Virus record (IMG/VR): IMGVR_UViG_3300024240_000003
DNA: 64,000 nucleotides
Origin: an uncultured virus (IMG/VR IMGVR_UViG_3300024240_000003)
Taxonomy: Duplodnaviria > Heunggongvirae > Uroviricota > Caudoviricetes
Direction: 5' to 3' (one strand)
Both the position numbers and the translations under genes were made by a program. Below the pieces are notes generated by a model, which did no database searches, was not told where the DNA came from, and saw only the letters and a program-made list of their open reading frames with translations. Shown here one piece after another: positions 3,535-62,328 of the stretch. Every line of letters begins with the position of its first letter. The first letter of the stretch is position 1.

Positions 3535-3559
3535 AATATAAAAATTTAAATTAATAAAA

Positions 3560-11210: not shown

Positions 11211-12641
11211 TCAAAACTCAATCCCGTATTTCTTCACCTCAGCTAATTCACTCCTCAGCTCCACAAAGTCCGCACTGCTTTTATCAATGTTTGACCCAAC
11301 CGCTTTTACGCTCTTCGATATCTCCTGTATCTTTTCAATCACTTCCTCCGGAGTGTCTCCTGTTCCTATTACACTGCATATCGTAGAGGCTTTCGGTACT
11401 GCCCAGTAATTGCCCCCGTAACAACAGGCTTCCCTGAACTTTATCCATTGCCTGTTTTTCTTGTCAAATTTTATCCTCGCCCAGTTTCCTTCTTCTACAA
11501 AACTCGAATAGAAACTCGCACCGCCTCCGTATTTAGCAGTATATTCTGGAATTACTTTTTCATCATGCCCCATTCCCCAAAATACCTCAGCATAGTTTTT
11601 TATCATTTCCTGCTGCACTGCATTCGGTACCGGCGCCGCTAATCTTAAACACGGGTCAATGAAAAATCCCTTCCTCTGTTTCGTAAGTATCAGCTCTGAA
11701 CTCATCCAGAACGAATAATTTAGTTTTTTGAATACCGGTGCCATCTTGTCACTAATTAGCTTTATGCCTTCCGGCACGTCTTTATAATCATATACTTTCC
11801 CGATGTACCCCGCTCCTTTTATTTCGAATCCAACCATCGTAGGACTTACTACTTCACCTTTGTATAATATTCCGTCCAATCCCGGTTCTATTCCGTCTAA
11901 TTTTTCCTCAATCACAAAGTTTAATTCTTCTCCCTTCGGTCCCCACTCTACCTTAAGTCTTGCAATCTTTGGCTCCGAGTCTTCCCAGTCGTCCTGCGAC
12001 CAGGTTTCAACATCACCTCTGTATGTGTTGAGCTTTATTACAACTTTCTTGTGTTCCTTCAAAAATTTTTCCAGCTTTGTTAAACCCTTTACTACGTCAG
12101 TCTGTTGCGTGGGTAATCCGGCTTTTTCCTGTTCCTTCCTTCCTTTTATCCGGTCAAGCTCAAGTTCCTCAGCATCGCCTACACCCGCCACCGGATATCC
12201 TTTGTCTCTTAAAAAGTTTACTATATCCGAACAGTGTGTGTCAGGAAAAACAATCAGGTCAGCTTCATCAACGTAATCCCAGAAGTATTTTATTCTTTCC
12301 ATGTTCTCGAATCCCTCTCCAATCAGGCTCTTTATCGCCTTCGGAAATGCCTCAGTCCAGGGAACGAAATAATGTACCTTTCCGAATTTCTCTCCAAGTT
12401 TATTGGCTACTTCAGTAAATAAGCCGAAATCATATACAAGACATTTCTTATTACTCAAATCCACTTCTTCGCTCTTCTTCGTACCCTTCGTGGTATGCTC
12501 TTCGCTCTTCCTGTTACTGCCCTCTGCTCCTGCAACTGGCTCCACTTTCCCGCTCTTTCCATTCCCCTCGTTCCCAAAGTCCTCTTTGGGAACGTTTCCT
12601 GCTTTTCCTTTTATTCCTAAACTTTTTAATATTTCGTTCAT
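11211..12641 (-). CDS. ATP-grasp ligase (PurD/GARS-like fold)
   Basis: DLIVFPD, G..V.G....ELE.DR..G, VVIK, FVIEEKLDGIE and FIDPCLR ATP-grasp-type motifs. Confidence 0.7.
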   Translation of the reverse strand: MNEILKSLGIKGKAGNVPKEDFGNEGNGKSGKVEPVAGAEGSNRKSEEHTTKGTKKSEEVDLSNKKCLVYDFGLFTEVANKLGEKFGKVHYFVPWTEAFPKAIKSLIGEGFENMERIKYFWDYVDEADLIVFPDTHCSDIVNFLRDKGYPVAGVGDAEELELDRIKGRKEQEKAGLPTQQTDVVKGLTKLEKFLKEHKKVVIKLNTYRGDVETWSQDDWEDSEPKIARLKVEWGPKGEELNFVIEEKLDGIEPGLDGILYKGEVVSPTMVGFEIKGAGYIGKVYDYKDVPEGIKLISDKMAPVFKKLNYSFWMSSELILTKQRKGFFIDPCLRLAAPVPNAVQQEMIKNYAEVFWGMGHDEKVIPEYTAKYGGGASFYSSFVEEGNWARIKFDKKNRQWIKFREACCYGGNYWAVPKASTICSVIGTGDTPEEVIEKIQEISKSVKAVGSNIDKSSADFVELRSELAEVKKYGIEF

Positions 12642-15600
12642 TCTGGTATTTGGTTAATTTCTTGTTTAAATTTTGTTAATCTCTCACCTTTTATTCCCGG
12701 CTTTTCTTCCGCAAGTCTTAATATCCTCTTCCTGTCAATTTTGAATTTCCCCTCTTCATCCTCTTCAGGTTTGTATATCCATTCATTACCATCGTTTGTC
12801 TTTATTTTATATTTATCCTTTATTATAATATTTATATCATCTAATTTATCGAGAAAAGCAACCCTCTTTCCGTAATTTTCAATAGCATCGTATATTTCCT
12901 CGTCTTTATCTTTTTTCTTTTGCTTCTCCGATTTTTTCTGTAACTCCGCTCCCATTCCTTTGAACATTTCATCAAATGCTTTGTCTCTGCATATTCCTAC
13001 GAGCTCCTTCACGTACCACCTTCTGTCATTAGCATCCTCAATCTTGTTTATCGCATCTATGCTCCCCTCAAGTCCTTTCCGGATATACCCACCGCTTATT
13101 TTTACGTAGTTGTAATATTCATCATCCGTCATTGCTCTTTCTTTTCCGCCTATAGAAACAAGCTCTTTTTTATCCGGAAGAGTAATCCATGCATTATTGT
13201 CAACTATCCATTTCCACACTCTGTCGGATTTTACATCCGTTCCGGAAACTACAAACATATTCGAGTAGTCCTTTGTAACCGGCTCTCCGAGTGCGTTTAT
13301 CATAGGCTTGAGTCCAAGCCACTCCTCACCAATTCCAATGTTTTTTATAAACCTCTCCCTGAGAGTGGAAGCATCGTAATATTTATCATCCCATATTACC
13401 CTCATCTGTTTTAATATGTTCGGTACAAAACCTGTAGGTATGTCTATCGCCTGATCTGTGTAATATCTTCCAAATTCGCCTTCCGTATCACCTACTGCCT
13501 TAAAGAACCTAAGTGCTCCGCTCATAAACGATTTATCGAGTATAGAGTGCATACAGATGAATAGTGTTGAACCTATCCTGTCAGCCCAGCTTTCATCTTC
13601 CTTCTTTGAGTATTTCAGATTGTCCACTATCGTTCCAACTGCAAGTAGAGGAGTCGCAATCGTAGGAATATGACTGTAATCATACCACCTGTTGCCTATC
13701 TTTATGCAGTATGGCTTCCATCCTGTTGCTCTGAGTTCTTGTTGCTGTTTGTAACTCGAGGGTCCCGTTCCGGTTATTTCAATTAACCCTTTAAGCGCTG
13801 CCGCTCCTATCAGTCCAATAAGTGCCGTTCCTTTGAGTCCCCTCGTTATGTATCTCCAGTCTTCACCTTCTGCAAATTTCTCTCCGCCAAGCCCATTGTA
13901 GTGCCCGTATATGCCCCTGTATATCCCCCATGGAGAGTAATTAAATCCCATGTTGTATACATTTGCAACTATGTTCCGGAATGGAATCACGAAGTTGATT
14001 AGGTTTCCTACTTTCGCGCCTGGTAAAATAGGTGATGATTTCGGGATTGCCTTTTTGCTCATCCCATTCGCCGACTGCGCTATCATTCCCGCAAGTCCGT
14101 AAGGCTTTCCCTGAAATGTATTTTGTAATCCGTATTTTCTCGAAATTTCGGTTATCTTTTTGTCCCTGCTCTGCTCTACTATCTGGTTTATCCTTCTAAC
14201 CTTATCCACACCCTTCAATCCTTCCGCTTCCGCCTGTGCTTTTGCTTTTTCTCTAATTTCATCAGTAAGCCCCAGCATCTTGTTTATCGTATCATCAAGT
14301 TCTTTACCTCGTAATCCCTGCTTGCCTGCCATTCTCCGGGCTATTGCCCAGGCTTCCATCTCAGCAGTTGCATAGTGGAACATAGTTGCTCCCGCCTTTA
14401 ATGTTCTCGATACGTATTTAGCCCACGCCATCGGACTCCATGCATAGTTGCCTATCAAATCCAAAGCCCTGTTTGGTCCGTATATGTCACTTCCTGAAAG
14501 TATGCTTACCTTACCTTTCATAACAGCACTTGCCTCCGGAAGTCCTTTTTTTATACCTTCTGCATATTGCTTAATCCTTCCCGGGATTTCTTCCGGATGA
14601 CGTATATCTGCATATAAGTTGTCAACCGATAAAATAAACTCAGAAAGCCCTTTCTTTATATGTGTCGAAAGCCCCGAAAGCATCGATGCATATCTGTATC
14701 CCCAGAATCTATCACCAAAACTTATTCCCTTCTGCTTTTCAATATAATCGAATAAATCTTGAATCTCCTGTTGCTGCTGCAGGCTGTCTGCCGGAAGTTC
14801 CTGAACCTTATTCGCTCTCTTTATTATCTCTTTGCTCTGCTCATCAGTGATGAATTTCATTTTGTATTTCTGCGCGAAGAGCTGCCGGTAATCTTCAAAG
14901 TCCAAAGCTCCTAAGTTTGAGAGCTCAATAATCTTTTCATATAGTTTCTTCGCTTCTTTTGGCTTTATGTCAAGCCTGCTTTCGAGTATTTTTCTTTTTC
15001 TCTCTTCTACCTTTTTATCAAAATCTTCTTTTATGGTTTTTGCAAACCCGTCTATCCGGTTTTTTAATTCTTCATTACCGGGAGCATCCGAATCCCTCGT
15101 TCCCAAAGTCCCCTTTGGGAACGTATCCAGATCAGCTTCTTTTAAAAGTTTATCTGTTAGCGTTTCCTTGGCTTCATCAACCACAGAGAAATGTTTTTTA
15201 ACAATATCCGATAGGTTTACTTCCATTTCTTTTAAACCTGTCTTTACTACACTGCTCACTTCCTTCTCACTCCACGGATTTTCTAAGTAATGTTTGAAGT
15301 AATTATCAAGTATAGTTAGTGCCTTCTCATCCTTCCCGAATTTCTTTTTTACGATTTCCTGTGCCTTTACCCATACATCCCGGTAATCCGCTTCCATCTT
15401 TACGGCTTTTCCTACAATCTCAATAAGCTTCCTCTTTGTCATTGGTTGCTTTTCGGGCACGAGCTTGTTTTCCTTCGCCACCTGGAAGAGCGTCCTTACC
15501 ATCTCTTTTACAATGTCCGGGGGCTCGGGCTTAAGCGGAGGTTTAAGTGTGTTTATAACTTTCTTCGCGAGTATCTTACTGGCATCTTCATAGTCCTGTG

Positions 15601-18600
15601 CCTTCTGTCTCAACTCTCTTGCCGCCGTTTTACTTTTTTCCGATACTTCACCTTTGTTAATCTCGTTTACAATTCTGTCCGTTAAATCTTTCAACGAGCC
15701 TGTCACATTGTTTATAATCGTTGTTACCTTTTCAGCGTCCTCATATCCCTTCACCCTTGCTTTCAATTCCCTGATAATATATTCAGCTTTCTTATTCCTT
15801 TCCTCAAATTCACTCGTGAGTTTTTGAACGGCATCCGATAATTCTTTATTCTTTATGTTCCCTACAGCCTCCACCATGCTTTGATGCAGGTCTTCGTATT
15901 CCTTGAATAATTCTTCCTTTTCCTTATCGCTTAATTTGCCTTTTGTTTCCATCTCCGCAGAGAGTTCTACAATCTTTTTTGATAAGTCTGATATTTCTCC
16001 TCTTACACCTGCTATGTAATTATCTAATTCATCACCTTTTAAAAATTCATCCATATCATCCGCCACGTATCTTGTCACCTTTACAAGTTTCCCGCCTTCT
16101 GTTACCGTATCTTTTCCTTCAATCTGCTTTTTCGCATATCTTAAAAAGCCCGCAGGAGATAGATTCTTGAACATAGCATAAGCCTGTACACCTCTTCCAA
16201 GCAGCGTTCCGGCTTCCATTGTGTAGCCGGCTAAATCAACAGCCTTTTTATATTTTTCCTCAGCCGCAAGTATATCACCGCCTTTTTCAAGTTCTTCTCC
16301 TTCCAATGAGAGCCTCTTTATCAGGTATTCACCCATTGCTACTTTCACTTCATTCTCAATCTCTGCATCGTTCCTCTTTATCGCTTCTATCGAGTCGTCA
16401 ATACCGTAATCTTCTACGTGCTGCAAAGCCTTTTCAAGTGTAACTTTGTTTGCTATCGGTTTGTAAAATTTATTTTCCAGAGCCTGCTTTATTCTTTCAT
16501 TCACTTCATCGCTTCTTCCAATCTGCTTTCCGAATTTCCGCGGCTTCATTTTCTTTTCCCTTGCTAACTCTTCTGTAGCAACCCGGTTAACATAATCCGC
16601 ACTTGCCAGTTCGTATAGTTCTTTGTATTGATTCTCTGAAAATTTAAATGGTACTTTTTGTGATTCAAATAATCTGTCCATTGAATCCTTGAATTCTCCC
16701 TCAGTCATCTTTGGATTGTTGGATATACCGAAAGTTCCTATCTTTATTAAGTTATCTTTATGCTCGATAAAATAACTCGTGCTGGTATGCTCAAGTAACT
16801 TTGGAAATTCTTCCGGATTGTTTTTAAATTCCGATTCCAATTCTCCCGGATCCTCTTCCATTTCATATCCATCACCTTTTTCACTTATTATTCCACGCTT
16901 AAATAATTCTTCTGTCACTTTCCTTATCTCTTTTGTATCCCGACCGGATTTCTCAGCGATATCGGATACTTTTACGCTCCCGCCTTTCTTCGGAAGAGAA
17001 GAAAATATAGAATCCTTAAAATCCTCTAATCCTTTTTTTATCTCTCCAACCCCGCTTTTTATCCCTTCATCAAGATTGTAATTCGTCAGCGAACCGAATT
17101 TGTAATCACTGCTATAATCCGGCGATTCCCCTTCAGTATCTTTTTCCCTATTGACATTAATATTTTTATCACTTAAATTTGAATCGGATAAATCATCCGT
17201 TGAAATCTGTTTATTACCCTTCGGGGTTTCAGATTTCAGTTGTGATTTGCTTTCAAAGTTACTCTCGTTGGATTCGTCTGACGAGAGTATTTTATTTTCA
17301 GAATATTCTTCCGTTCCATTCAATAATGACGTTAAATCATTGGTGATATTTTTTGCTTTTACTTTGTCTTTATTAAATTTTTCCTCTTGTACTTTAACTT
17401 CATCGCTATTTAAAAAATCTTGTTTTGCTTTCTTATATCTTTCAGTAAAAATTTCATTGTATTTTAAATCAATATCTTGATGTGCATTCCGTCTTTCGTA
17501 ACTACTCCCGTAATTCTCTCCCTGCCCTGAAATAAAAGAATGCTCGTTTTGTCTCGCTTGTTTTTCCTCATCTGTTAAAAAACTGTCTCCTCCATTTCTA
17601 TTGAAAACAGGATTAAATTTTTCTTCAGGCTTTGGCAATGTAGATAGTTCTTTAACTTGTCCCTTAATAAAATCTTTATTCTTTTCGGCGTTAATATAAA
17701 ATATTTCAGGCAGTATTTCAGAATTTATTATACCCCGATTTTTTAATTCGTTTATTGTTTTTTCATCAAATCCTTGTTTTGATAATTCTATTTTATAAAT
17801 AGGTTCGTCTTTAGCGACTTTTAGATTGTTTCTTAATTCTTCTGCTTTATTTAGATTTTCTGCTGTTTCGTAATCAATCCCGCTATAATATCGGGGTAAA
17901 TTATACTTATATGTTGCATCAAACCATCCGTACTTACCATTCATTTCAACTGACGACACTATTCCGTGTTCCGGCTCTTTATCTTCTCGCTTGAATGTCT
18001 TGAATTTTGAGTTGAAGTCATCTAATTCTTTCTGTGCCTCATAAACATATTTACTTCTTACATTTTTAATATTGTTTTTCTTTTTAATGACTTCTTTTGA
18101 TTTCGTATCAAGAGCTTTAATAACATTTTTGGGAACATCTTTAAAACTTTCGATGTTGTCTAAATTATCACTACCTAATTCTTTCAATTCTGCCTCTGAA
18201 AATAAAAAGGGACTGATAAATTCATCTACACTATAAAACGGTGTTTCATTTCCATAAGAAGATGTATGATGCCACTCGTTTGTTGTTGCTAATCCTGCAT
18301 CTACCATTCTTTTTGCCCAAGTTGGAAGTTTTGAATAAGGTAATTTCCCTTCTTCATACGCTGATTCGGCTCGTTTACTCATTGAATGTCCAACATACCC
18401 ACTATTGCCCCCAAATGGTTTTCTTTTTTCACTCACCATCTCTCCAACATTAGTACCAATCTCTTCTCCAAAATATCTCCTGTAATTTGTTACCTCTCCG
18501 CCTTCCCATGGATATTCCTTTTTGTTGTCATTTCTCCAGCTCTTCTGCTTTGAGTTGTCTAAGAAGTCTACGAGCTGCTGGTCCTGAAGCATCTGCTCCA

Positions 18601-21600
18601 CGTTAGTTCTCGCAAATGGACTCAGGTTTTCTTCGTTACCCATCACCATTGCAAAGTGTGAGCTCCCCGTCTCTACTCCTATTTTCCTTAAGTATTCCAG
18701 TATATCTTCGTAATTATCCAGTAGTCCCATAGGTACTTCATGCATCGTTGTTATTTTCATCTGTGGGTCAACTCCAATCAGCGTAACCGCATTGTCGTTT
18801 CCCTGTAATTCTTTTACTATATTTTGTAATTTTTTCGAGGAGATTTTCTGTCCCATATACCCTGAGTGACTCTTCGGGTCTAATAGTGTGTCATATCCTA
18901 ATTTTAAATTATCTTCATCTGCAAAGTCATAGATATCCTGTGTTTTGAGTATCTTCTCAAATACAGAATCGTTTCTTTTTTTCGCTTCCTGCTTTATGTT
19001 TGTTATGTCCCCGAATCTTTGTTCGAAATTCAAGCGGTGAATTACCGAGTATTTTCCGTGATTGGTTACTATATGCGCCTTTATTTCCGGAATTTCCTTC
19101 ATAAATTCATAAGTCGTCTTTATGTCATCATCGCTTGCATAATGCTCCGCAGATGGATGATTGTGCGTTAATATCACTTCATCAGCTCCTAACTTGCTTA
19201 TATCACCTTTTATCAGCTCTTTCATATCCGGAGAGAATATTACCGCATTTGGCAGTCTTGAAGTTACTGTTTTGTATCCCACAATTTTACCGTCTTTCAT
19301 ATAAAACACTCTGAAGCTTTCAAACCTGGGGTCTCTGAGTACCTGTACCATATAAGCTAAATCCGCCGGTGTGTTTACTTCTTTTCCTATGAATTCAATC
19401 TGTCCGTCTTCAATCATTTTCCTTGTCTTCTCAAGGTATTCTTTGTTGTACCTTAATGGTAATTCTCCGAAGAGTCTATCAGACCCGGGTTCCTTTCCTC
19501 CGGTGCTCTCTGCTTTTCCTTCTCCGCCAATATTTCCCATCTTGCTATCTGTGTCGTTATTTCCGGTATCGGATTCGGCGGCTTCCTTACCTGTTGTTGC
19601 ATCCGGTAACTGTTCTCTTCCTGCCAGTTCGTTATAATTAAATAACCCCAGTTGTCCACTGCTAATACTGAAATCGTATCTTGCAAGGTCTCCGATGGCT
19701 TTATTGAATAAATCCAGTTGACCTGGTTCCTTACCCTCGATATTAACATTTTTAAGCCCTTCCTTTTGTAGAACTGTTATTTCTTTGTCTATCTTATTAT
19801 TTATTTCGTCTCCGTATATATCAATCTGTCCTTCAAGCGGCTGCTCGCTGTTGTATTTTTTCATAGCCGCTATCACATCTTTTGCTCTTTCCTGTATCGC
19901 TCTTAATTCTTTTGCATATTTGTAATCACCGCTTTCAGCATATAAATTTGCTATCCTGTCATTGTAATCCTGAAGTGTTTTCAGGTATTCATAAGGATTC
20001 CCAATCCCTAATCCCAAATCCCCTTTATAAGCCTCGTACTCCGCCCCCCGTTCAAATACAGCTTGTCCCTGCATTACACTTTCTTTCATAGAGGGGGTAA
20101 TGTCAAGGGAGTGGATAGGTGAACTTTCTACGTAGTTTTCTTTAATATATTTTTCTGCCTTTGCTCTTGTCAAAAAGGTTTTAATAACAAGATTGTACTC
20201 ACCATTTGGGGACATTGCTTCAATCACAAACTTATTACCCTTTTCTACTATACGTGGTTCTTTATATTGGTTATTTAATTTTGAATCATTATTTATTGTG
20301 AGTTCTTTTTCCCCTACTTTCCCGCCCCACTTCTTTGTGTATTTGTTCATAAATTCGGGAATGATTTTGTCGTAGAATCCTTTCATTCCTTCACCACCGA
20401 TTTTTAAATTATCACCCTCAATCTTACCAACCGTTTCCTTACTGTTTATTATTTTTTCTGCAATTTCCTTACCTACTAAATTAGATAATTCATTTTTCAA
20501 TACAACTTCATTCGGATTAATTACATTAAGTATTTCATTATTTTTACCAAATATTTTTATAAAATATCCGTCTGCACGTTTGTTATAAGAATATTCAATT
20601 TTGTTCACCTGCTTACTCAAATCATACCTCTCCGCCTGTTGCTCTCCCGTAGTCCAGCCAATTCCGTCATATCCGTTTTCAGTTGCGTGTCGTAATGCCC
20701 ACTTCATTCCTACTTCTTGCCAGTTCTTTTTGAATGGAAAATTCGGAACGCCTGATTTTACACTTAATTTGTCAAGTTCTCTATCTTCTTCATCGGTCAT
20801 TTTTTCAAGTAATATGTCGGGGAAACCTTGTCTCTTTTCTAAACCATATTTTTTCTTCAATTTTTCTAAATATTCATCATACAGTTTTTCATCTCCACTA
20901 TACCCCTCTTTTCTTCCCTTCTCTCCCCAGTCACTCTGTACTTCTTCAAGGAATAAGATTTTCTTGCCATCCGCAGTCGTTCTGTCGTTCATACGGAGAT
21001 GTAATGCTACGTTGGGTTCGTCAAAGTGACCACTTTTGAAAACATCGGGTCTTGTTTCTTCGCCCGTTTGTCTTAATGATTCTAACTTTTTATCTTCTTC
21101 GGGTGTAATCTCTGCTCGTAACCTTTTTTGAGATATTTCACGTGGATTTAATCCATATTTTTCTGCTAATTCATTATAATAATCTGCAAATTTTAATAAT
21201 GGTTTTCCGCTCGGTAACGTCAATAATACCTCTTTGTAGTTTTCACCGCCGGGTAATTGCCATTGTGCAAATTTGGTGTCTGCTTGCTCTTTAATTGATT
21301 TTATATCTTCGTAACTGTCTATTGCCTCGTTATGTGCTTCAACTATATCGTGATATTTGTTAATATCGTAATCCGGTAAATATTTTAGTATGTTATCAAC
21401 CGCACCACTCATTTGAGGAGAATTGAATTTCATACTGTCTAAAATATGTGTCCACTCACTTCTGTCGGAGAATGATACACCTTTTTCTTTTAACTGATTT
21501 TGTAAATCTGTGTTAGCTTCTTTATATTTATCATATATTTTATTTCTTCTAATCTCCGCATCCTTGATTTGCTGCTGTCGCTTTTCGCTTATAGTCCCTG

Positions 21601-24600
21601 CGCCCTTCGTAACTTCTTTCACCTCAACTTTATTCTCGTTGATAAAATTAAGTAAATCCTGTTTGCTTACTTTATCTTTGCCTTTCAAGAATTCATCTAT
21701 TCCTAACCAATCATATTCCGCTTGTTTTACTCCGTTGTTAAGTAATGTGCTTTTTATCTGCTCCGGCGATGCGGAAGAAGGCAATTTTGAACTTGCTATT
21801 CTCTCAAGGTTCGAGTAAAATGTCGGTTTACTATTTTCTTCATCATATCCGGTTCCTTTCTCAAATACCGCATCGTCTGGTTTCGATTCAAATATAAATC
21901 CCTTTTTCTCTCTCGACCAATTTCCACCCTGCTGTTTCATCTCTTTGTGTATCTTCCAGAACTCATCCTTACTAACTTCATTATTCAATCTCGCTACCCA
22001 AATATCTTTTTTACCTTCAGTATCTTTTTCCCTATTGACATTGATATTTTTATTTTTTAATTTAGTAGCGCTTGTATTCAGTGGATTATCAGAGTGTTCC
22101 TGCTGCTGAATGGAACGCGGACGAGACACTTCGGACGCCTTCAGTTTTTCAACTACCTCTAACTTCTTGATATAATTATCATTCACTCTTGGTTCGAAAG
22201 TTATTACATTGTATAAACCCTTATCAGCCTTACCTTTTACGGAAATTAGTGTATAGTTATTGTCCTTCCATTTTTTTGTTATATAAATTCTTTCTTCTCC
22301 GTTATGATTTGATTTGAATATACTCGTCGGCTCGATTAATGTATTTTTCAGTTTACCGTTTTTTATTGCATTCAATTTTTCCCTCGAAATAACTCTTTTA
22401 CTAAAATCTCTTTTTCTTGTTTTAGTGTCCACAGCATTTATAGTTATAAAATGTGCCAACTTCTCACCTTCGGTCTCTGTTCCGGTAGGACCTAAATAAA
22501 CTTTAATGTCCTTTCCATATACTATAGGATTTTCCTTTGAGAACTCTTTAAAAAGTGGCTTAACTATTTCTATACTGTTTATTATTTCTTCATAATCTTT
22601 TTTGTCAAATTTATTGAGTGGATTTTTTGCATCTGTTAGATCTGAAACAGAATCTTTATTATTCTCTTTTTTCTGCTCTTCTTCGCTTTTCCCCACCGGA
22701 TTCAACTTCTCATCCAGTCCCGCTTCTTGCCTTTCTTTTTGTATATCCGAATCCTGATGCTCACCCGTAGGTTGGTCTCCGAAGAGGGAAGTCTGCCCGA
22801 ATAGCGATGTCTGAGCTTCATCATATGCTGCTCCCTTGTCAAATATCACTCCCTGCTGCCTGCCTTGTATCTTCACCTGCCCTACATCTGTCATTTCATC
22901 AATGTCTTCACCTTCCTGCAGAGCCCGGGCAATTCTTATTTTCCTTTGCGTAATCACCGCCCGCCTCTCGTCGTTAATAGCATCCTGTCCCCAGATAATG
23001 TGTACATCCGCCGGAGTTACACTGTTACGCCTCGAAAGTCTATATATTTCCTGCTGAAATAAATCCCCGCTATAAGGAGAGGAAACAATGTATCCAATTC
23101 TTTCTTTTCCTCCTAACCTCTGGTTATCCAGGTCTATTCCAACTCCTCCGCTTTTCGGTGTCATCATTCCCGCATCAAATTTGTCAGCTTGAAATTTTTC
23201 AATGTCTTTTATTTTGGCATCGCTGTCACTACCGTATATCTTTGCAAAACTTATTCCGGCATTTTCAAATTTCTTCGCAAGTGCTCCTATAAATCCGGGT
23301 ACTTCTATCCCTAATGATTTTATTGTCGTGGGATTTATAAAGTCCGCACATACTATCGGAAGCCTGCCTGCCGCTATGTCTCCCGCAACAGTTTCGAATA
23401 TATGTTCAACTTTCGCCGACTCCGTTATAGCCCAGAGCTCCCGGTTCCTTGAACGCCCGTATGCCATAGCTATTTTATCAGCATCCGTTATTCCGCTGTT
23501 TAATACTCTCCTTATTCTGTCCTGCCAGTGCTGCCAGATATCGCTCTGCATTTCATAAAAGTCCGCGGAAAATGGAACAGTCACTTCTTTTATGTTTCCC
23601 CAGAATGGATATTCGCGCCTGAGCATGCTTCCGGCTTTTATAGCTTCGTTCCGGAGTGCTATTATCCTTCTTACAAGTTCACCACTATCCAGTTTTTCAT
23701 CTGCAGCGGTGATAATCTTTCCGTTTTCATATTCGAGTTTGAGTCCTAATCTGTCTGCGATATCCTGCACGGGTTTTCCTGTTATTTCTGAAAGGAAATA
23801 AATTGATGCTTTCGGTGTGTCGAGCGGAGTCGCTGTTGCAAATAGATTTCTTTCGGTCTTTACGTTTGATTGTGCTATCGAGCGGAGTGCTTCAACGTTC
23901 TTTAAATTGTGTGCTTCGTCATAAATTGCAAGTCCGTAATCTTCCTTTCCTATCTTACCTGTCCTTAAATCATCATAAGTTCCTATATCAAATTGTGAAA
24001 TCCCTATCCTTAATGCTTTTGCTTCTGACTTAAAACTTTCGTCATATACTTGCTTGTTTGGTACTACAATCAGTACCGGCTTTTTCCAGGTGTCTATAGC
24101 ATATTTAGCTATAACAAGTTCTTCCCTTGTCTTTCCTAAGCCTGGTCCGTCGGCGAGTAATCCTGATTTGTTTCCGCCCTCAAAGTTGCTTATCATTAGA
24201 TTCGCACCGAATCTCTGATGCTCGTCTAATTCACTCTTTCCGTTTATTTCGTATTTTTCGGCGGGAATGTAGTCTTTTGACGGCTGTGGTACATCTTCTT
24301 CATCAAAATATCGTAATCCGGGTCGCTGAATTCTGCTCTCTCCAGCATCTGCTCCTCGAGGCTCTCGTCCGCCCCGTACATTTGACCGTTCACCTTCACG
24401 CTCTCCGACTTCATCAGGTTTTCTAATGTCATCGGAATTGAATTGTCTGATTTCGTTTTCATTTGATAATTCGTTTTTAATTGCAGGTGAGAGTTCATAT
24501 TCTTTTGCAAATTTCTCGTACCCCGCTTTTAAATATGGTAAAATATTTTGTAAATTCCTATGTCTTAATTCATTTGCTATATCATTTATCTTGACAACAC

Positions 24601-27600
24601 CTATCTTTGCAAACCTGCTTACTAAATCCGCAACTTTATCAACTGTCTCCACGTCCTCCGTGTCATACCCCGCCCCTTTATCGAAGAGTGCATTCTGCTC
24701 TTTCGCCGCATCGAGGTATTTATCAAGTTTGTTCTGAAATCCTAACTTTTCCGTTGTTAATTGTTTTATTAAATCTCTCTTTTTTTCGAGTGCCTTGTCA
24801 ATAGCTTCATCTGTTATTTTCGGATCTGCTTTCTGCCTCATCACAAATTCATCTCTGGAAGACGCTAAATCATCCTCCGCAGCTTTTATTTCCCTGTTGA
24901 GCCTTCCAAGTTCCTTTCGGAAGTCCGCTTCCTGTATAGATTCAGCCTTGTTTTCAATGTTCAGAGGCTTCGAATAATCGAATTCCCAGTCACCTTCCTC
25001 TAAGAATTTTAGCTTTGTTTTCAGGTCATCGTATGAGAAGTCTTGCTTTTTATTCAGCCAGTTGTAAATTTCCTCTTCGTGCTTGTTCGTAAGGTCTGGA
25101 AATTCCCGTCTCGCACGTCCTACAATAGATGCCATCTTCTGCCCCCGTGCTTTATTCTCCGCACTTGCAGAGTCCATCATCTTGTAATTCTGCACAATCG
25201 AACCCTTTGGATTCAGGAATGAAAGGTTATATACATCCTGTGAGTTTTTCTTTTCTAATTTCCGCGCCTTAGATAGAATATCTTTTTCAGGTTTACCTTC
25301 TAAGCGCATATCTCTGTATAATTTTGCACTTTCGGTAAAAGATTGAGCAGTGTTTAATTTGTTGCTTTTTTCCTTACCGTAAACTTTTGCCTGCTCCTCA
25401 GTACCTTTATGGAAAATTGATGGTATTTCATCAAACCCCGGGACTCCTTCTTCTGTTAATTCCTTATATGCCTGCAATCTTGAATGATTTAAAGCATATA
25501 TTTTATTGTCTTTCGGGTCTTTCCATAGTCTCACAGAATCAAACTCTTCGGGAATAAACTCTCCGTTTTTAACAGCATTTTTTATACTGTCTACTGTGTC
25601 TCGTGAATATTCATCCTCTCTGGGTTGAAATCTTTCAAGGTCAACACTTATTTGGTTTATTGGTACTAATTTTTCTCTGCTGAAATCTTTAAATTCAGAC
25701 GGCTCTTTGCTCTTACCTTCAGTAATCTTCCTGTCCTTAGTAGTAAATAAATCTTTTCCTATTTCATCAATCTCTTTCGATATCGCTTCCTTATCAGCTT
25801 TCTTTACCGCAGTTACAATCTTTTCCGGTTTCTCTACAGGTTTCTTTTCTTCTTCTTCTTTTTCAGCACCTGTAAGAACTCTTTCTTTGCTTTCTCCATC
25901 TGCAGGGGCTTCAACGTCTTTAATTCCCTCGGCGGGCTTATTTCCTTTGTCTTCATTTTTTATCTTTTTCCTTTCTTCTTTAGGTGTTTGAAGAATTCCA
26001 CCTGTGCCAGCCTCTTCTGTGCCTCGTCCATTGACAGGTTGTTTTTCGATAGGTTCTTTCTCCCCTCGCTCTTCACCTGGTAGCCCTTCGATGTTTTCTT
26101 TATCATTTCTCGATGCCTCTTTAATTTGAAATAATGAATTTGTTTCTTTACTGTCAACTTTCTCAACTTTGAATCCCTCAGGAAGTTTTGTGTTTATTTC
26201 TTTTAAAAGTTCATTAGAATTTTCTTTGCTTATCAGTGGGTCCGCAGAAGAGATATATTTCCCGTCAGATATATCATCTTTTGCAATATCTTGCGCTAAC
26301 GGATGTTTAAGCTCATCTTTTTTTATAATTACCTCTTTCTTCATGCCCTCTGTGTCCTTAGTGGTAGAGGGTTCTCCGCTCTTCTCCACCGGCTCTATTT
26401 CACTCAATAATTCCTCAGCTCTATTTATATCAGCAGGAGGAGGAGCAGGTTCTGTGTCGACTTTAGTTTCACTTTTTTCTTGTCCCAAAAATCCCTTAAT
26501 CTTTTCCATTGGTTCTACAGTAGGAATAATGTCACTTCCTTTCATCGGTCTGTAATGAAATGCACGGAAGAGCGTGTTTGTGAGCGCATCACTTAAAAAT
26601 TCTTTTCCGTTGAATCCTTTCCCGCTCATCAGTCCCGGGACCTGTGAAGCCATAGGAGGAACGAGCGCATCGTATAATAATCCTTTGAATTGTGCCGCAT
26701 TGAATCTGTTCTGGAATATTTTTGGAATTTCATACGGAGTTTCATCTACTGCCCTCTTTATTGGCTTTTCAATTTCTCCAAGTAAATTATTCCTTAAATT
26801 CTGATATTCCGGTAATTCCATTTCTCCTTTTGCCATTGCATCCCGACCGATTTGTAATTCTTTGAATGCTTTTTCTGTGAATAGTTTTTCTTCCGGAGTC
26901 ATCTTTACTCCGCGGATTACCTTTCCAAAATCCTTGCTCGCATCTTCATATAACTTTTTAACTTCATCTCCAAATGGATTGAGTCCGAATGCCGCACCTA
27001 AGAGAAGACTATGTCCCACATCACTTGACATATCTACCGGCTGTAAATCTCCTTTTGCCATCGAAATAATATCTCTACTTATCGTGGGAAGTGTGAACGT
27101 GCCTGTCGTCTGCATTATGTTTGGTATGTGCGCGGCTAAGTAATTTCCTACTTTATCACCTAAAAACCTCGATACTGTATTCAAAGCCCCGCTAACAGTT
27201 TCTTCGTTTGCCAAACGCCTCATAACCGGCCCCATTAGCTTACTGGATGCTCCCAGTCCAACGATAACGTCAGGAATCATCTTTGATATCGATTCTACTA
27301 CCGCCTTCGGCTTAACGTCAATTCCGAGCAGTTTAAATCCTTCTTCATTATTCTTTATAGCTTCCCTCTCCAGCCTTAGCATCTTAGGTCTTAAATCCGG
27401 CAGGAATCCGAATCCGGATGTAATACTTTCAACAAGCCCCTGTTGCATCGATTCAAGGAATCCGTTTGAATTGTTTTTATACTTTTCCTGTAGGTATGGT
27501 TTCAGTACCTGCTCGTCAAATATGTTTTCGGCTTCTTCCGTCTTCCGCCCTTCTTCACCTTGCAGAAGAGATTTTCCAATCCTGTAAGCCCATTGGTTCG

Positions 27601-28180
27601 GAAGTATAATCTCACCGATATTCTTTGGCTTTAATACTTCTGTTAATTTTTGTGGCTTCTGCTGGTCCAATGCTTCTTTTATTTTGTCAAATCTTTCGTC
27701 AAGCATTGCCTTTTCCTGCATTATCTCACCCGCATCAGGTCTTAAATATCCCGGCTCATTTATCGTTTTGCTTATATCTGCACCTTGTGATATCTGTTTG
27801 AAGTCATCTGCACTTTTCTTTTTCTTTAATCCATCCGCAAATTCAAGCATAGCCGCCGTCTTATCCCATCCTCCTTCAGCTACAACGTCTTTCACAATCC
27901 CGGGCAATCCTAAGTTATCAGTTCCCTTGTCGAGTGCTTCCCTCCTGCTCCTGAGTCCGAGTGATTTGAGAACGTCAATCACTTCCTTGTTTACTCCCGG
28001 CTCTGTTACAGTCTCCGGCAATGGTCCCGGAAGATTCACGCCTTCGTCCTGTGCAGTTTTTAAAATATTGGAATATCGTACCTTCTTTACATCAGGTTCA
28101 ACATAATGATAAGTCTTGTCAACATCGTTTAAGAGTTCCCTTGCCTTTTTTGATATTTTGGGTTTCGGATCGTCTGCCAT
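12638..28180 (-). CDS. Giant polyvalent (DarB-like) ejected virion protein, 5180 aa
   Basis: ParB-like domain (~25000-25680); SF2/SWI2-SNF2 helicase (LADGPGLGKT, DEAH, ATATP; ~22920-24230); BECR-like RNase (~22150-22560); EEVQSDW domain (~20060-21830); JAB/RadC (THNHPS...SDDD; ~19050-19400); SMS/EWHHTS domain (~18200-18420); wHTH; LPD38-like C-terminus. Confidence 0.85.
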   Translation of the reverse strand: MADDPKPKISKKARELLNDVDKTYHYVEPDVKKVRYSNILKTAQDEGVNLPGPLPETVTEPGVNKEVIDVLKSLGLRSRREALDKGTDNLGLPGIVKDVVAEGGWDKTAAMLEFADGLKKKKSADDFKQISQGADISKTINEPGYLRPDAGEIMQEKAMLDERFDKIKEALDQQKPQKLTEVLKPKNIGEIILPNQWAYRIGKSLLQGEEGRKTEEAENIFDEQVLKPYLQEKYKNNSNGFLESMQQGLVESITSGFGFLPDLRPKMLRLEREAIKNNEEGFKLLGIDVKPKAVVESISKMIPDVIVGLGASSKLMGPVMRRLANEETVSGALNTVSRFLGDKVGNYLAAHIPNIMQTTGTFTLPTISRDIISMAKGDLQPVDMSSDVGHSLLLGAAFGLNPFGDEVKKLYEDASKDFGKVIRGVKMTPEEKLFTEKAFKELQIGRDAMAKGEMELPEYQNLRNNLLGEIEKPIKRAVDETPYEIPKIFQNRFNAAQFKGLLYDALVPPMASQVPGLMSGKGFNGKEFLSDALTNTLFRAFHYRPMKGSDIIPTVEPMEKIKGFLGQEKSETKVDTEPAPPPADINRAEELLSEIEPVEKSGEPSTTKDTEGMKKEVIIKKDELKHPLAQDIAKDDISDGKYISSADPLISKENSNELLKEINTKLPEGFKVEKVDSKETNSLFQIKEASRNDKENIEGLPGEERGEKEPIEKQPVNGRGTEEAGTGGILQTPKEERKKIKNEDKGNKPAEGIKDVEAPADGESKERVLTGAEKEEEEKKPVEKPEKIVTAVKKADKEAISKEIDEIGKDLFTTKDRKITEGKSKEPSEFKDFSREKLVPINQISVDLERFQPREDEYSRDTVDSIKNAVKNGEFIPEEFDSVRLWKDPKDNKIYALNHSRLQAYKELTEEGVPGFDEIPSIFHKGTEEQAKVYGKEKSNKLNTAQSFTESAKLYRDMRLEGKPEKDILSKARKLEKKNSQDVYNLSFLNPKGSIVQNYKMMDSASAENKARGQKMASIVGRARREFPDLTNKHEEEIYNWLNKKQDFSYDDLKTKLKFLEEGDWEFDYSKPLNIENKAESIQEADFRKELGRLNREIKAAEDDLASSRDEFVMRQKADPKITDEAIDKALEKKRDLIKQLTTEKLGFQNKLDKYLDAAKEQNALFDKGAGYDTEDVETVDKVADLVSRFAKIGVVKINDIANELRHRNLQNILPYLKAGYEKFAKEYELSPAIKNELSNENEIRQFNSDDIRKPDEVGEREGERSNVRGGREPRGADAGESRIQRPGLRYFDEEDVPQPSKDYIPAEKYEINGKSELDEHQRFGANLMISNFEGGNKSGLLADGPGLGKTREELVIAKYAIDTWKKPVLIVVPNKQVYDESFKSEAKALRIGISQFDIGTYDDLRTGKIGKEDYGLAIYDEAHNLKNVEALRSIAQSNVKTERNLFATATPLDTPKASIYFLSEITGKPVQDIADRLGLKLEYENGKIITAADEKLDSGELVRRIIALRNEAIKAGSMLRREYPFWGNIKEVTVPFSADFYEMQSDIWQHWQDRIRRVLNSGITDADKIAMAYGRSRNRELWAITESAKVEHIFETVAGDIAAGRLPIVCADFINPTTIKSLGIEVPGFIGALAKKFENAGISFAKIYGSDSDAKIKDIEKFQADKFDAGMMTPKSGGVGIDLDNQRLGGKERIGYIVSSPYSGDLFQQEIYRLSRRNSVTPADVHIIWGQDAINDERRAVITQRKIRIARALQEGEDIDEMTDVGQVKIQGRQQGVIFDKGAAYDEAQTSLFGQTSLFGDQPTGEHQDSDIQKERQEAGLDEKLNPVGKSEEEQKKENNKDSVSDLTDAKNPLNKFDKKDYEEIINSIEIVKPLFKEFSKENPIVYGKDIKVYLGPTGTETEGEKLAHFITINAVDTKTRKRDFSKRVISREKLNAIKNGKLKNTLIEPTSIFKSNHNGEERIYITKKWKDNNYTLISVKGKADKGLYNVITFEPRVNDNYIKKLEVVEKLKASEVSRPRSIQQQEHSDNPLNTSATKLKNKNINVNREKDTEGKKDIWVARLNNEVSKDEFWKIHKEMKQQGGNWSREKKGFIFESKPDDAVFEKGTGYDEENSKPTFYSNLERIASSKLPSSASPEQIKSTLLNNGVKQAEYDWLGIDEFLKGKDKVSKQDLLNFINENKVEVKEVTKGAGTISEKRQQQIKDAEIRRNKIYDKYKEANTDLQNQLKEKGVSFSDRSEWTHILDSMKFNSPQMSGAVDNILKYLPDYDINKYHDIVEAHNEAIDSYEDIKSIKEQADTKFAQWQLPGGENYKEVLLTLPSGKPLLKFADYYNELAEKYGLNPREISQKRLRAEITPEEDKKLESLRQTGEETRPDVFKSGHFDEPNVALHLRMNDRTTADGKKILFLEEVQSDWGEKGRKEGYSGDEKLYDEYLEKLKKKYGLEKRQGFPDILLEKMTDEEDRELDKLSVKSGVPNFPFKKNWQEVGMKWALRHATENGYDGIGWTTGEQQAERYDLSKQVNKIEYSYNKRADGYFIKIFGKNNEILNVINPNEVVLKNELSNLVGKEIAEKIINSKETVGKIEGDNLKIGGEGMKGFYDKIIPEFMNKYTKKWGGKVGEKELTINNDSKLNNQYKEPRIVEKGNKFVIEAMSPNGEYNLVIKTFLTRAKAEKYIKENYVESSPIHSLDITPSMKESVMQGQAVFERGAEYEAYKGDLGLGIGNPYEYLKTLQDYNDRIANLYAESGDYKYAKELRAIQERAKDVIAAMKKYNSEQPLEGQIDIYGDEINNKIDKEITVLQKEGLKNVNIEGKEPGQLDLFNKAIGDLARYDFSISSGQLGLFNYNELAGREQLPDATTGKEAAESDTGNNDTDSKMGNIGGEGKAESTGGKEPGSDRLFGELPLRYNKEYLEKTRKMIEDGQIEFIGKEVNTPADLAYMVQVLRDPRFESFRVFYMKDGKIVGYKTVTSRLPNAVIFSPDMKELIKGDISKLGADEVILTHNHPSAEHYASDDDIKTTYEFMKEIPEIKAHIVTNHGKYSVIHRLNFEQRFGDITNIKQEAKKRNDSVFEKILKTQDIYDFADEDNLKLGYDTLLDPKSHSGYMGQKISSKKLQNIVKELQGNDNAVTLIGVDPQMKITTMHEVPMGLLDNYEDILEYLRKIGVETGSSHFAMVMGNEENLSPFARTNVEQMLQDQQLVDFLDNSKQKSWRNDNKKEYPWEGGEVTNYRRYFGEEIGTNVGEMVSEKRKPFGGNSGYVGHSMSKRAESAYEEGKLPYSKLPTWAKRMVDAGLATTNEWHHTSSYGNETPFYSVDEFISPFLFSEAELKELGSDNLDNIESFKDVPKNVIKALDTKSKEVIKKKNNIKNVRSKYVYEAQKELDDFNSKFKTFKREDKEPEHGIVSSVEMNGKYGWFDATYKYNLPRYYSGIDYETAENLNKAEELRNNLKVAKDEPIYKIELSKQGFDEKTINELKNRGIINSEILPEIFYINAEKNKDFIKGQVKELSTLPKPEEKFNPVFNRNGGDSFLTDEEKQARQNEHSFISGQGENYGSSYERRNAHQDIDLKYNEIFTERYKKAKQDFLNSDEVKVQEEKFNKDKVKAKNITNDLTSLLNGTEEYSENKILSSDESNESNFESKSQLKSETPKGNKQISTDDLSDSNLSDKNINVNREKDTEGESPDYSSDYKFGSLTNYNLDEGIKSGVGEIKKGLEDFKDSIFSSLPKKGGSVKVSDIAEKSGRDTKEIRKVTEELFKRGIISEKGDGYEMEEDPGELESEFKNNPEEFPKLLEHTSTSYFIEHKDNLIKIGTFGISNNPKMTEGEFKDSMDRLFESQKVPFKFSENQYKELYELASADYVNRVATEELAREKKMKPRKFGKQIGRSDEVNERIKQALENKFYKPIANKVTLEKALQHVEDYGIDDSIEAIKRNDAEIENEVKVAMGEYLIKRLSLEGEELEKGGDILAAEEKYKKAVDLAGYTMEAGTLLGRGVQAYAMFKNLSPAGFLRYAKKQIEGKDTVTEGGKLVKVTRYVADDMDEFLKGDELDNYIAGVRGEISDLSKKIVELSAEMETKGKLSDKEKEELFKEYEDLHQSMVEAVGNIKNKELSDAVQKLTSEFEERNKKAEYIIRELKARVKGYEDAEKVTTIINNVTGSLKDLTDRIVNEINKGEVSEKSKTAARELRQKAQDYEDASKILAKKVINTLKPPLKPEPPDIVKEMVRTLFQVAKENKLVPEKQPMTKRKLIEIVGKAVKMEADYRDVWVKAQEIVKKKFGKDEKALTILDNYFKHYLENPWSEKEVSSVVKTGLKEMEVNLSDIVKKHFSVVDEAKETLTDKLLKEADLDTFPKGTLGTRDSDAPGNEELKNRIDGFAKTIKEDFDKKVEERKRKILESRLDIKPKEAKKLYEKIIELSNLGALDFEDYRQLFAQKYKMKFITDEQSKEIIKRANKVQELPADSLQQQQEIQDLFDYIEKQKGISFGDRFWGYRYASMLSGLSTHIKKGLSEFILSVDNLYADIRHPEEIPGRIKQYAEGIKKGLPEASAVMKGKVSILSGSDIYGPNRALDLIGNYAWSPMAWAKYVSRTLKAGATMFHYATAEMEAWAIARRMAGKQGLRGKELDDTINKMLGLTDEIREKAKAQAEAEGLKGVDKVRRINQIVEQSRDKKITEISRKYGLQNTFQGKPYGLAGMIAQSANGMSKKAIPKSSPILPGAKVGNLINFVIPFRNIVANVYNMGFNYSPWGIYRGIYGHYNGLGGEKFAEGEDWRYITRGLKGTALIGLIGAAALKGLIEITGTGPSSYKQQQELRATGWKPYCIKIGNRWYDYSHIPTIATPLLAVGTIVDNLKYSKKEDESWADRIGSTLFICMHSILDKSFMSGALRFFKAVGDTEGEFGRYYTDQAIDIPTGFVPNILKQMRVIWDDKYYDASTLRERFIKNIGIGEEWLGLKPMINALGEPVTKDYSNMFVVSGTDVKSDRVWKWIVDNNAWITLPDKKELVSIGGKERAMTDDEYYNYVKISGGYIRKGLEGSIDAINKIEDANDRRWYVKELVGICRDKAFDEMFKGMGAELQKKSEKQKKKDKDEEIYDAIENYGKRVAFLDKLDDINIIIKDKYKIKTNDGNEWIYKPEEDEEGKFKIDRKRILRLAEEKPGIKGERLTKFKQEINQIPE
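17151..17181 (+). promoter_or_regulatory. Antisense promoter inside the giant gene
   Basis: TTGACA-17 nt-TAAATT(TG). Confidence 0.65.
17185..17298 (+). ncRNA. Candidate antisense structured small RNA 1
   Basis: Promoter, three hairpins (two with TTCG loops), 13-bp terminator stem followed by TTTTATTTT. Confidence 0.6.
19453..19749 (-). CDS. Candidate overprinted ORF nested in the giant gene
   Basis: 98 aa in an alternative frame, AAGGAAGG RBS 8 nt before ATG, ends just before the JAB domain. Confidence 0.4.
   Translation of the reverse strand: MLISRVRNQVNWIYSIKPSETLQDTISVLAVDNWGYLIITNWQEENSYRMQQQVRKPPNPIPEITTQIARWEILAEKEKQRAPEERNPGLIDSSENYH
22035..22065 (+). promoter_or_regulatory. Antisense promoter inside the giant gene
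   Basis: TTGACA-17 nt-TAATTT(AG); lies in a 40-bp block 39/40 identical to 17130..17169. Confidence 0.6.
22070..22150 (+). ncRNA. Candidate antisense pseudoknotted RNA 2
   Basis: ATTCAGTGG/CTGCTGAAT and GTGTTCC/GGAACGC form interleaved stems; next to the BECR-like RNase domain. Confidence 0.45.
24244..24462 (-). CDS. Candidate overprinted ORF nested in the giant gene
   Basis: 72 aa alternative frame under an R/G/E-rich linker, just before the helicase domain. Confidence 0.35.
   Translation of the reverse strand: MKTKSDNSIPMTLENLMKSESVKVNGQMYGADESLEEQMLERAEFSDPDYDILMKKMYHSRQKTTFPPKNTK
25960..26106 (-). CDS. Overprinted small basic protein nested in the giant gene
   Basis: 48 aa MIKKTSKGYQVKSEGRKNL...AQKRLAQVEFFKH, resembling a stand-alone small protein family; GAGG upstream. 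Confidence 0.55.
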   Translation of the reverse strand: MIKKTSKGYQVKSEGRKNLSKNNLSMDEAQKRLAQVEFFKHLKKKGKR

Positions 28181-60457: not shown

Positions 60458-60502
60458 TGTCAAATATTCTCTTTATGTTAATTAAAATTATTTTGTGTTA
60501 CG

Positions 60503-60549
60503 CAAAGTTAATAGAAATATTTCCATTTGTCAAGGGGATATTTCTATTA
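60503..60549 (-). promoter_or_regulatory. Lytic promoter and operator
   Basis: Minus-strand TTGACA-17-TAACTTTG; 12-bp inverted repeat TAATAGAAATAT (60509..60520 / 60538..60549). Confidence 0.7.

Positions 60550-62256: not shown

Positions 62257-62328
<72 letters not shown>

What the first reader, a model, noticed from the sequence alone, without database searches (positions are those of the whole stretch)
22035..22560. BECR-like RNase domain paired with an antisense promoter and a pseudoknot-capable RNA (type III TA-like cassette)
Seen: directly after the BECR/PBECR-like domain (LAHF...TLIEP..I...YNVITF), the + strand has TTGACA-17-TAATTT. It is followed by interleaved stems ATTCAGTGG(22076-84)/CTGCTGAAT(22103-11) and GTGTTCC(22094-100)/GGAACGC(22112-18), which fit an H-type pseudoknot. 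Established: ToxI/AbiQ type III antitoxins are pseudoknot RNAs that inhibit RNase toxins, and polyvalent proteins carry BECR RNases. Inference: the RNA neutralises the RNase in the producing cell, while the injected protein is active in the next host. No clear terminator is visible.
Basis: partly seen in the sequence, partly recalled or inferred. Interest (0 to 1): 0.85.

Follow-up and report, generated by a model that had tools for sequence, protein, structure and literature searches.

The report
Phage RNase with overprinted RNA antidote
Inside a giant phage protein gene, a backwards-facing promoter and a small folded RNA sit just behind a probable ribonuclease domain; the same pairing recurs across many phages and is missing where the nuclease is absent or eroded, so these RNAs are probably an undescribed kind of antidote, though nothing has been tested at the bench.

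Summary
The antisense promoter (22035) fits the host-lineage consensus and is duplicated at 17151 ahead of a strongly folding RNA. The H-type pseudoknot as drawn is sterically impossible (0-nt loop 3); a two-hairpin loop-loop fold is more likely.

The pairing is general. A convergent promoter lies 70-160 nt behind PBECR2 domains (-10 box in 57 of 77 loci) and PBECR3 domains (12 of 22), driving covarying 80-120-nt RNAs absent from Rfam. In loci fetched by the neighbouring gene, the gap is present behind 39 of 43 tailed MuF genes and 1 of 14 short ones. It is missing in four eroded tails and in phage Mu, whose domain is described as inactive.

Best reading: RNA antitoxin for virion-borne RNases. 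It would work like type III TA but is not a member. Weak points at this locus: domain identity rests on weak evidence, the RNA folds no better than shuffles and matches neither family model, and there are no close relatives. The scan noted a MuF case before on other DNA (e1-6788319).

The parts
12638..28180 (-). Polyvalent virion protein gene, 5180 aa (ParB-like, SNF2/ResIII helicase, PBECR-like, JAB/RadC, internal-virion-protein-like C-terminus)
   Evidence: terminase large subunit at 40541-42166, integrase 484-1557
22142..22519 (-). PBECR-like (BECR-fold) putative RNase domain, aa ~1888-2013; His1910 (22451-53) and Thr1994 (22199-201) sit where PBECR has its His and Ser/Thr
   Evidence: Atlas feature hits to PBECR3/PBECR2/MuF_C clusters 0.90-0.93, recognition 2131 under the 2300 mark; PBECR profiles land on aa 1943-2005 at E 0.05-0.22 only; no Pfam or PHROG hit
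22014..22070 (+). Promoter cassette overprinted on the linker (reads KNINVNREKDTEG on the coding strand): T-tract, -35 TTGACA 22035-40, -10 TAATTT 22058-63
   Evidence: rank 6 of 15,513 + strand positions in the gene by a matrix from 77 outside promoters
22070..22149 (+). Predicted ~80-nt antisense RNA: hairpin 1 (22075-22112, 18-nt loop), hairpin 2 (22113-22142, tandem G-A pairs, ACAC loop), T-run 22145-49. Ends are inferred
   Evidence: G+C 0.52 against 0.39 for the gene; RNA-seq contigs 22088-22257 and 22091-22330, strand unknown
22092..22131 (+).
   Evidence: inferred by analogy, no covariation available for this locus
17130..17186 (+). Second copy of the promoter cassette (86% identical): TTGACA 17151, TAAATTTG 17174
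   Evidence: rank 1 of 15,513
17184..17298 (+). Second predicted antisense RNA: long stem with UUCG loop, then a terminator-like hairpin 17260-89 and T-run; follows an unnamed domain (aa ~3230-3620)
   Evidence: z -6.67, 0 of 200 shuffles; RNA-seq contigs 17209-17493 in one run, strand unknown

Best explanation
The giant protein carries a PBECR-type RNase that is probably packaged and delivered with the phage DNA (inferred from gene context). A host-sigma promoter on the opposite strand makes a small structured RNA in the lysogen or producing cell, independent of the late operon. The RNA folds into a compact junction or loop-loop shape, binds its cognate RNase and blocks it, standing where polymorphic toxins have an immunity protein. 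At the end of a MuF gene the RNA has its own intergenic slot. Where the domain is internal to a polyprotein, as here, promoter and RNA are written into the coding linker. A newly infected cell has no RNA yet, so the delivered RNase can act until the phage DNA is transcribed. Shown: position, promoter, covarying structure and co-loss at class level. Inferred: RNase activity, expression, binding, inhibition, injection, and that this locus is a working member.
For: PBECR2 set: antisense -10 box 120-160 nt past the domain in 57 of 77 loci (other 40-nt antisense bins 8-27); full promoter 22 of 77 (other bins and sense strand 0-3). RNAs fold at z<-2 in 44 of 78 against 2 of 77 controls. Three stems and the loop-loop helix covary in 39 chosen sequences (0.519 vs 0.190 shuffled, slides <=0.192); own loop pairs >=5 bp in 19 of 39 vs 6.3% of 1482 cross pairs. 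PBECR3 set: promoter 12 of 22, TTYGGRCG motif 14 of 22; 8 of 12 read-through cases have the promoter overprinted (read). A DNA-only pattern returned 3 PBECR3 domains among 40 frames scanned. Control by neighbour gene: gap >=85 nt in 39 of 43 tailed vs 1 of 14 short MuF; the 4 tailed loci without a gap have lost conserved basic or His residues. Phage Mu F and G overlap by 4 nt and its domain is called inactive in PMC5512222. Five solo hits followed by a small ORF (type II-like by eye) show no such promoter. The promoter follows the host lineage: TAnnTTTG in 8 of 19 own-phylum vs 3 of 66 other loci.
Against: At this locus: no sequence relative, so no covariation; domain profiles not significant; the RNA matches neither model; folding z about 0. 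Class level: RNA and nuclease are neighbours and kin are not independent, so matching families may be plain linkage. In L057 and L119 the model's hit lies next to gene G, 150-700 nt from the toxin. Model R1 finds only 12 of 40 held-out PBECR2 loci. In the neighbour-gene control a fixed-window folding score did not separate groups (medians -0.58 vs -0.36), and the loose -10 rule also fired in 12 of 13 loci with another gene upstream. The same promoter also drives an RNA behind a domain with no RNase evidence (17151). No binding or toxicity data.
Confidence: 0.52

Rival explanations
1. Cis silencing: convergent transcription, or pairing with the mRNA, stops leaky expression of the toxic domain in the lysogen. 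The RNA's fold serves stability or termination only.
For: The transcript is antisense by construction. Here it runs toward the domain's 3' end with only a weak terminator, and RNA-seq contigs reach 22257 and 22330 (strand unknown). Loss with inactive domains fits this too.
Against: In MuF loci the RNA mostly ends at or before the stop codon and does not overlap the toxin frame. A covarying loop-loop helix and fixed junction motifs are more than silencing needs. The RNA family changes with the nuclease family.
Confidence: 0.17
2. The RNA is a cofactor, guide or packaged partner that the nuclease needs in order to work or be loaded into the virion, not an inhibitor.
For: Co-loss and family matching are predicted equally. 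Some PBECR2 tails with RNA lack the His (alignment; tails). The loop words vary freely (17 distinct words).
Against: BECR relatives such as colicin D and RelE act without RNA cofactors and need inhibitors (own knowledge). The RNA sits in the immunity position, including after orphan C-terminal cassettes in L112 (may be a tandem duplication).
Confidence: 0.13
3. At this locus the cassette is a relic or partly chance: the promoter was copied between linkers, the domain is not an active RNase, and the stems are incidental.
For: z about 0; no model match; four other + strand sites in the gene outrank 22035 besides 17151; -10 region one mismatch from TAnnTTTG; fold not established.
Against: His and Thr are retained. 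Distance and orientation match the class. The stretch is G+C-rich (about 5 of 207 tiles as high) with interleaved stems in 4 of 500 shuffles. RNA-seq contigs from two studies begin at 22088 and 22091 (weak hint).
Confidence: 0.15
4. The antisense transcript encodes a small immunity peptide, as in the antisense mini-genes of earlier finding e1-5632776.
For: A + strand frame 22072-22170 (TTG start, 32 aa) and shorter ones exist; 32 of 78 PBECR2 RNAs hold an ATG frame of 20 codons or more.
Against: Those peptides share no evident sequence beyond close kin and 46 of 78 loci have none. Conservation is of base pairs. The window frame would start within a few bases of the transcript's 5' end with TTG.
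Confidence: 0.03

Closest known systems
Type III toxin-antitoxin systems (ToxIN; PMC8860590, passages)
   Same: An endoribonuclease with a linked small structured RNA that has its own promoter and tertiary (pseudoknot-type) pairing; proposed direct inhibition.
   Different: ToxI is a tandem array upstream of toxN in one operon, with a terminator between, cut into repeats by the toxin. Here the RNA is single-copy, downstream, convergent, sometimes overprinted on coding DNA, and the partner is a BECR-fold domain of a virion protein.
PBECR domains of polyvalent proteins (Iyer et al. 2017, PMC5512222; passages and section 19)
   Same: Domain type (His in a helix, Thr in the last strand), giant multidomain virion protein with SNF2, ParB and JAB domains, predicted injected RNase.
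   Different: The word 'promoter' does not occur in that text and the passages read name no antitoxin for PBECR. The window's domain is below all PBECR HMM cut-offs.
MuF polymorphic toxins (Jamet et al. 2017, PMC5576092; passages)
   Same: Phage head protein with a variable C-terminal effector; self-protection expected; Ct_MAD tails of unknown role.
   Different: Immunity there is a small downstream ORF. In the PBECR-tailed loci examined here the slot holds a convergent RNA instead.
AbiF HEPN RNase with ncRNA antitoxin (PMC12373285 seen as search listing only; rest recalled)
   Same: Phage-borne RNase restrained by a non-repeat structured RNA.
   Different: HEPN fold, RNA upstream of the gene (recalled), not a virion protein.

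Membership tests
Type III TA (ToxIN/AbiQ) | Promoter and antitoxin upstream of the toxin ORF on the same strand | tested here: not met
   RNA is on the opposite strand, 3' of the domain; criteria from PMC8860590
Type III TA (ToxIN/AbiQ) | Tandem array of RNA repeats | tested here: not met
   TRF on 21800-22800 finds only a 12-nt, 2.3-copy hit at 22653
Type III TA (ToxIN/AbiQ) | Toxin of a ToxN/AbiQ-type family; RNA matching ToxI/AbiQ models | tested here: not met
   No Pfam family at E<=0.01 on the domain; no Rfam hit
Type III TA (ToxIN/AbiQ) | Antitoxin folds as an H-type pseudoknot | tested here: inconclusive
   As drawn impossible (loop 3 = 0 nt). Alternative partners at 22125-31 (loop-loop) and 22133-38 (H-type, 21-nt loop) exist; no covariation for this locus
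Type III TA (works like) | RNA binds and inhibits the nuclease | not testable with these tools
   Only indirect co-occurrence and co-loss
PBECR RNases | Match to a PBECR1-5 or MuF_C profile above cut-off | tested here: not met
   own profiles E 0.05-0.22
PBECR RNases | BECR fold (helix plus 4-5 strands) | tested here: inconclusive
   Single-sequence model pLDDT 33.6. Model forced with 65 PBECR2 rows pLDDT 66.8 (circular). VIA best Z 4.7 is DcpS; colicin D Z 4.0, rmsd 3.6, 79 aligned; RelE, colicin E5 and BrnT Z 3.4-3.6. Atlas features 0.90-0.93
PBECR RNases | His in N-terminal helix and C-terminal Thr/Ser | tested here: met
   His1910 (LAHF) and Thr1994 (VITF), placed by eye and by the profile alignment; pattern
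PBECR RNases | Encoded in a polyvalent protein among virion genes | tested here: met
MuF-PBECR2 RNA (model R1, built here) | Three-way junction with closing stem and kissing loops | tested here: not met
   No hit at 22070-22150 with filters off, E<=10
PBECR3 RNA (model R2, built here) | CGU-UUCGG-ACG mini-hairpin in a junction | tested here: not met
   TTCGGACG is present (22130-37) but its 5' partner is not; no hit at E<=10 (weak 4-pair model)

The most novel reading that the evidence does not exclude
Phage virion RNases of the PBECR/MuF clades, reported in up to 26% of polyvalent proteins, form a widespread polymorphic toxin system whose immunity factors are RNAs. Each nuclease clade has its own cognate structured RNA, at least four families with none in Rfam, plausibly tRNA-shaped decoys. 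Where the domain is buried in a polyprotein, the RNA gene and its promoter are overprinted antisense on the coding linker. The delay before a newly infected cell makes the RNA acts as a timer for the injected nuclease and gives lysogens protection against the same effector. The window's second cassette would extend RNA partners to a non-PBECR domain.
Probability: 0.45. Interest if true: 0.92.

Novelty: new variant of a known kind. Interest (0 to 1): 0.8.

Why it matters
It offers an answer to how phages tolerate the RNases they pack into heads: MuF and PBECR tails have had no known immunity partner. It adds several uncatalogued, covarying RNA families and a new layout for RNA antitoxins. It gives a sequence test for whether a PBECR domain is active (RNA kept or lost), and explains the recurring ..NVN/NVK.. 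linker motif of polyvalent proteins as an antisense promoter. A two-plasmid rescue assay in laboratory E. coli tests it directly.

Tried and rejected
Relatives of the window domain: none in viral contigs, the protein database (near and longer lengths) or phages. The 50% representative library gave 2 hits to the N-terminal helix only. 116 genomes of the order gave the nearest genome plus one spurious hit. Metagenomes gave one identical copy, L264. G001 is identical over about 20475-23400, so no variation is available.

An 18-nt promoter pattern gave 4 viral loci; three look like ordinary promoters and none lies behind a long frame. Structure: the single-sequence model and its viral fold search were meaningless; Foldseek PDB had no hit at E<=0.001. 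A small PBECR2-subclade profile scored -2.4 bits on the domain against -3.3 on the reversed protein, not significant. Own-versus-cross pairing for the two-hairpin subclade was not discriminating (5.9 vs 4.8, cross max 8). RNAalifold on A6 recovered only the closing stem; the other helices were set by eye and then counted. Rfam: nothing relevant in the window, in 20 loci or in 16 loci.

RNA-seq: contigs only, no strand or level, and run X1 covers the whole gene; runs were chosen with this region, so positions cannot rank genes. Second domain: no Pfam or Atlas hit; a solo relative in L296 shows no matching antisense cassette by eye. Most hits of the promoter+TTCGGACG pattern were unrelated, several looking like tmRNA ends. 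Literature searches listed no paper describing these RNAs. The library lacks most subscription journals, and I opened no supplements (bioRxiv supplements are closed); motif tables in supplements of RNA-discovery papers could hold them.

Full report
Setting. The finding lies inside ORF 12638-28180 (-), 5180 aa, in a prophage-like region with integrase, terminase and lysis genes. The protein has ParB-like, SNF2/ResIII, JAB and internal-virion-protein-like parts, the make-up of the polyvalent proteins of Iyer et al. (PMC5512222; passages and section 19). No own genome is held; G001 carries a 99% copy. Loci from genomes ranked in the same class or phylum coincide with records titled Ignavibacteria, Chlorobiaceae and Balneola, so the host is probably in that lineage (inference).

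Observation. All motifs are at the stated places. The promoter is one of two copies of a 57-nt repeat (17130-17186 and 22014-22070), each read as KNINVNREKDTEG at the end of a low-complexity linker. TAATTT is a poor TATAAT match but fits the Chlorobaculum RpoD box TA[ATC][ATC][AT]T, related to Bacteroidetes TANNTTTG (bioRxiv 172254, passages). TTGACN-16/18-TAnnTT occurs 6 times in the window: both copies, a divergent intergenic pair at 60451/60533, and two others. By a matrix from 77 outside promoters the copies rank 1 and 6 of 15,513 positions. Interleaved 9+7 stems are rare (4 of 500 shuffles, 1 of 259 tiles), but the pseudoknot as drawn has no loop 3 and cannot form. The same loop segment can pair with 22125-31, in a second hairpin closed by tandem G-A pairs and followed by five T. 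Overall folding is at chance. The RNA behind the second copy folds at z -6.67 and ends in a terminator-like hairpin.

Domain. No relative was found by any sequence search. Language-model features point to PBECR3/PBECR2/MuF_C clusters (0.90-0.93; 10 of 10 best family hits agree; recognition below threshold). Profiles built here align to aa 1943-2005, the best or only region in 5180 aa, but at E 0.05-0.22. Structure evidence is circular or weak. His1910 and Thr1994 fit the PBECR pattern. I rate BECR identity likely (about 0.8, judgement), not shown.

Class-level test 1: PBECR2. From genome and viral searches, 124 loci were reduced to 81 at 80% identity, 77 with full flanks. An antisense -10 box lies 120-160 nt past the domain in 57 of 77 (other antisense bins 8-27; same bin on the sense strand 25). 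A full promoter lies there in 22 of 77 (elsewhere 0-3). The downstream stretch folds at z<-2 in 44 of 78 against 2 of 77 controls. I aligned 39 of the 78, picked for a clear RNA. They form a closing stem and two hairpins whose loops pair; all five helices show double-sided changes (structure set by eye, so the slide control is favoured). Own loop pairs exceed cross pairs (mean 4.6 vs 3.0; none of 10,000 permutations reach it; 17 distinct words). A model from them finds 12 of 40 held-out PBECR2 loci and 0 of 14 others: other RNA types exist.

Test 2: PBECR3 and internal domains. In 22 loci not found through the promoter, 12 have an antisense promoter 70-140 nt downstream (other antisense bins 0-4; one sense bin 7). 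TTYGGRCG lies within 140 nt in 14, as a small hairpin in a three-way junction. Of 12 whose frame reads on, 8 carry the promoter overprinted as NVN/NVK-like codons (read), the arrangement of the window. In reverse, a DNA-only pattern gave 120 stretches; of the 80 with full DNA, 65 were distinct and 40 had frames long enough to scan. Three were PBECR3 and the only other hit was a repeat protein. In the window's phylum the box reads TAnnTTTG in 8 of 19 loci (other bins 0-4), against 3 of 66 loci elsewhere and 0 of 5 solo genes followed by a small ORF.

Test 3: does the RNA follow the nuclease or its neighbour? Eighty viral loci were fetched by gene G alone. I left out 4 with little upstream DNA, 2 duplicates and 4 broken or unclear. 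A gap of 85 nt or more precedes G in 39 of 43 tailed MuF and 1 of 14 short MuF loci (Fisher P 1.2e-8, kin not independent); -10 boxes 33 of 43 vs 4 of 14. Pfam gives PBECR2, PBECR3 or MuF_C at E<=0.001 for 30 of the 43 tails, 21 above cut-off. The four tailed loci without a gap have lost the K/K/R or K..H residues kept by relatives. Phage Mu, whose MuF-C is called inactive in PMC5512222, has F and G overlapping; I looked this up after making the prediction. Against: the fixed-window folding score did not separate groups, the -10 rule fired in 12 of 13 loci with another gene upstream, and in L057 and L119 the model's hit is next to G and away from the toxin. By eye the RNA type changes with tail clade: kissing three-way junction, UUCGG junction, a CGGTGAATCTC type, and a two-hairpin loop-loop type. 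The window's RNA resembles the last in topology only and matches neither model built.

Expression. Six RNA runs from peat hold parts of the region; four were laid, all as contigs. Runs from two studies have contigs starting at 22088 and 22091, and one has contigs at 17209-17493, among 5 and 3 contigs in 17 kb. There is no strand information and the runs were selected with this region: a weak hint.

Mechanism and verdict. An RNA that comes and goes with an intact nuclease, has its own host-type promoter, keeps tertiary pairs and sits in the immunity slot is best read as an antitoxin (0.52 for this locus, higher for the class). Cis silencing, a cofactor role and a local relic remain open. It would work like type III TA but fails that family's layout tests (PMC8860590, passages). 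Jamet et al. (PMC5576092, passages) expect protein immunity and leave Ct_MAD unexplained. The 2026 BECR classification preprint (10.64898/2026.08.28.747851, passages) has no occurrence of 'antisense' or 'RNA antitoxin'. Eight literature searches and four Rfam searches found no description; supplements were not read. An earlier agent reported a convergent RNA beside MuF in another genome (e1-6788319).

Noticed in passing
window 17130-17298 (+): Second promoter copy driving a much more stable RNA (z -6.67) with terminator, behind an unnamed ~390-aa region containing a GY.G.SMS..A..AY..G..WHHT motif; solo relatives occur in phage records. A possible RNA partner for a non-PBECR domain.
   Followed up: partly
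window 12565-12599 and 15094-15128: 35-nt near-palindromic repeat (94%), one copy inside the giant ORF (read as ADLDTFPKGTLGTRDS) and one in the next gene; RNA-seq contigs break with loose ends at 12562-12598, suggesting further copies elsewhere. A REP-like element?
   Followed up: no
L112:514-3310: MuF-PBECR2 followed by orphan C-terminal cassettes; the gene and both PBECR2 fragments are each trailed by an RNA copy, like toxin-immunity arrays. Two units may be a tandem duplication.
   Followed up: partly
L293, L294, L295, L150: LPD3 or LPD3-like domains also show antisense promoter-like boxes downstream; L295 and L150 carry TTCGGACG. LPD3 may share the system.
   Followed up: partly
L331, L353, L355, L365, L370-L376 (MuF-G gaps): A further convergent RNA family (AAACACGGTGAATCTCCC ... 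GGGAG) with apparent long-range pairing; no Rfam hit in the five of these scanned; not modelled.
   Followed up: partly
L011, L012, L018, L078: A distinct conserved RNA type (GCCCC..GGCGTTAAC..CAAGGC.CGGGACTTG) behind PBECR2 tails; L011, L018 and L078 are not hit by model R1.
   Followed up: no
window vs L001 (G001): The G001 copy has several short deletions with N bases within the giant ORF, probably assembly gaps.
   Followed up: no
window 60451-60533: Divergent pair of TTGACA-17-TAnnTT promoters between two gene blocks, probably the prophage switch; tRNA at 62257-62328 may mark the attachment site.
   Followed up: no
L304-L313, L321: Mu-like loci with an ~275-aa gene, DNA methyltransferase-like by eye, inserted between short MuF and G.
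   Followed up: no
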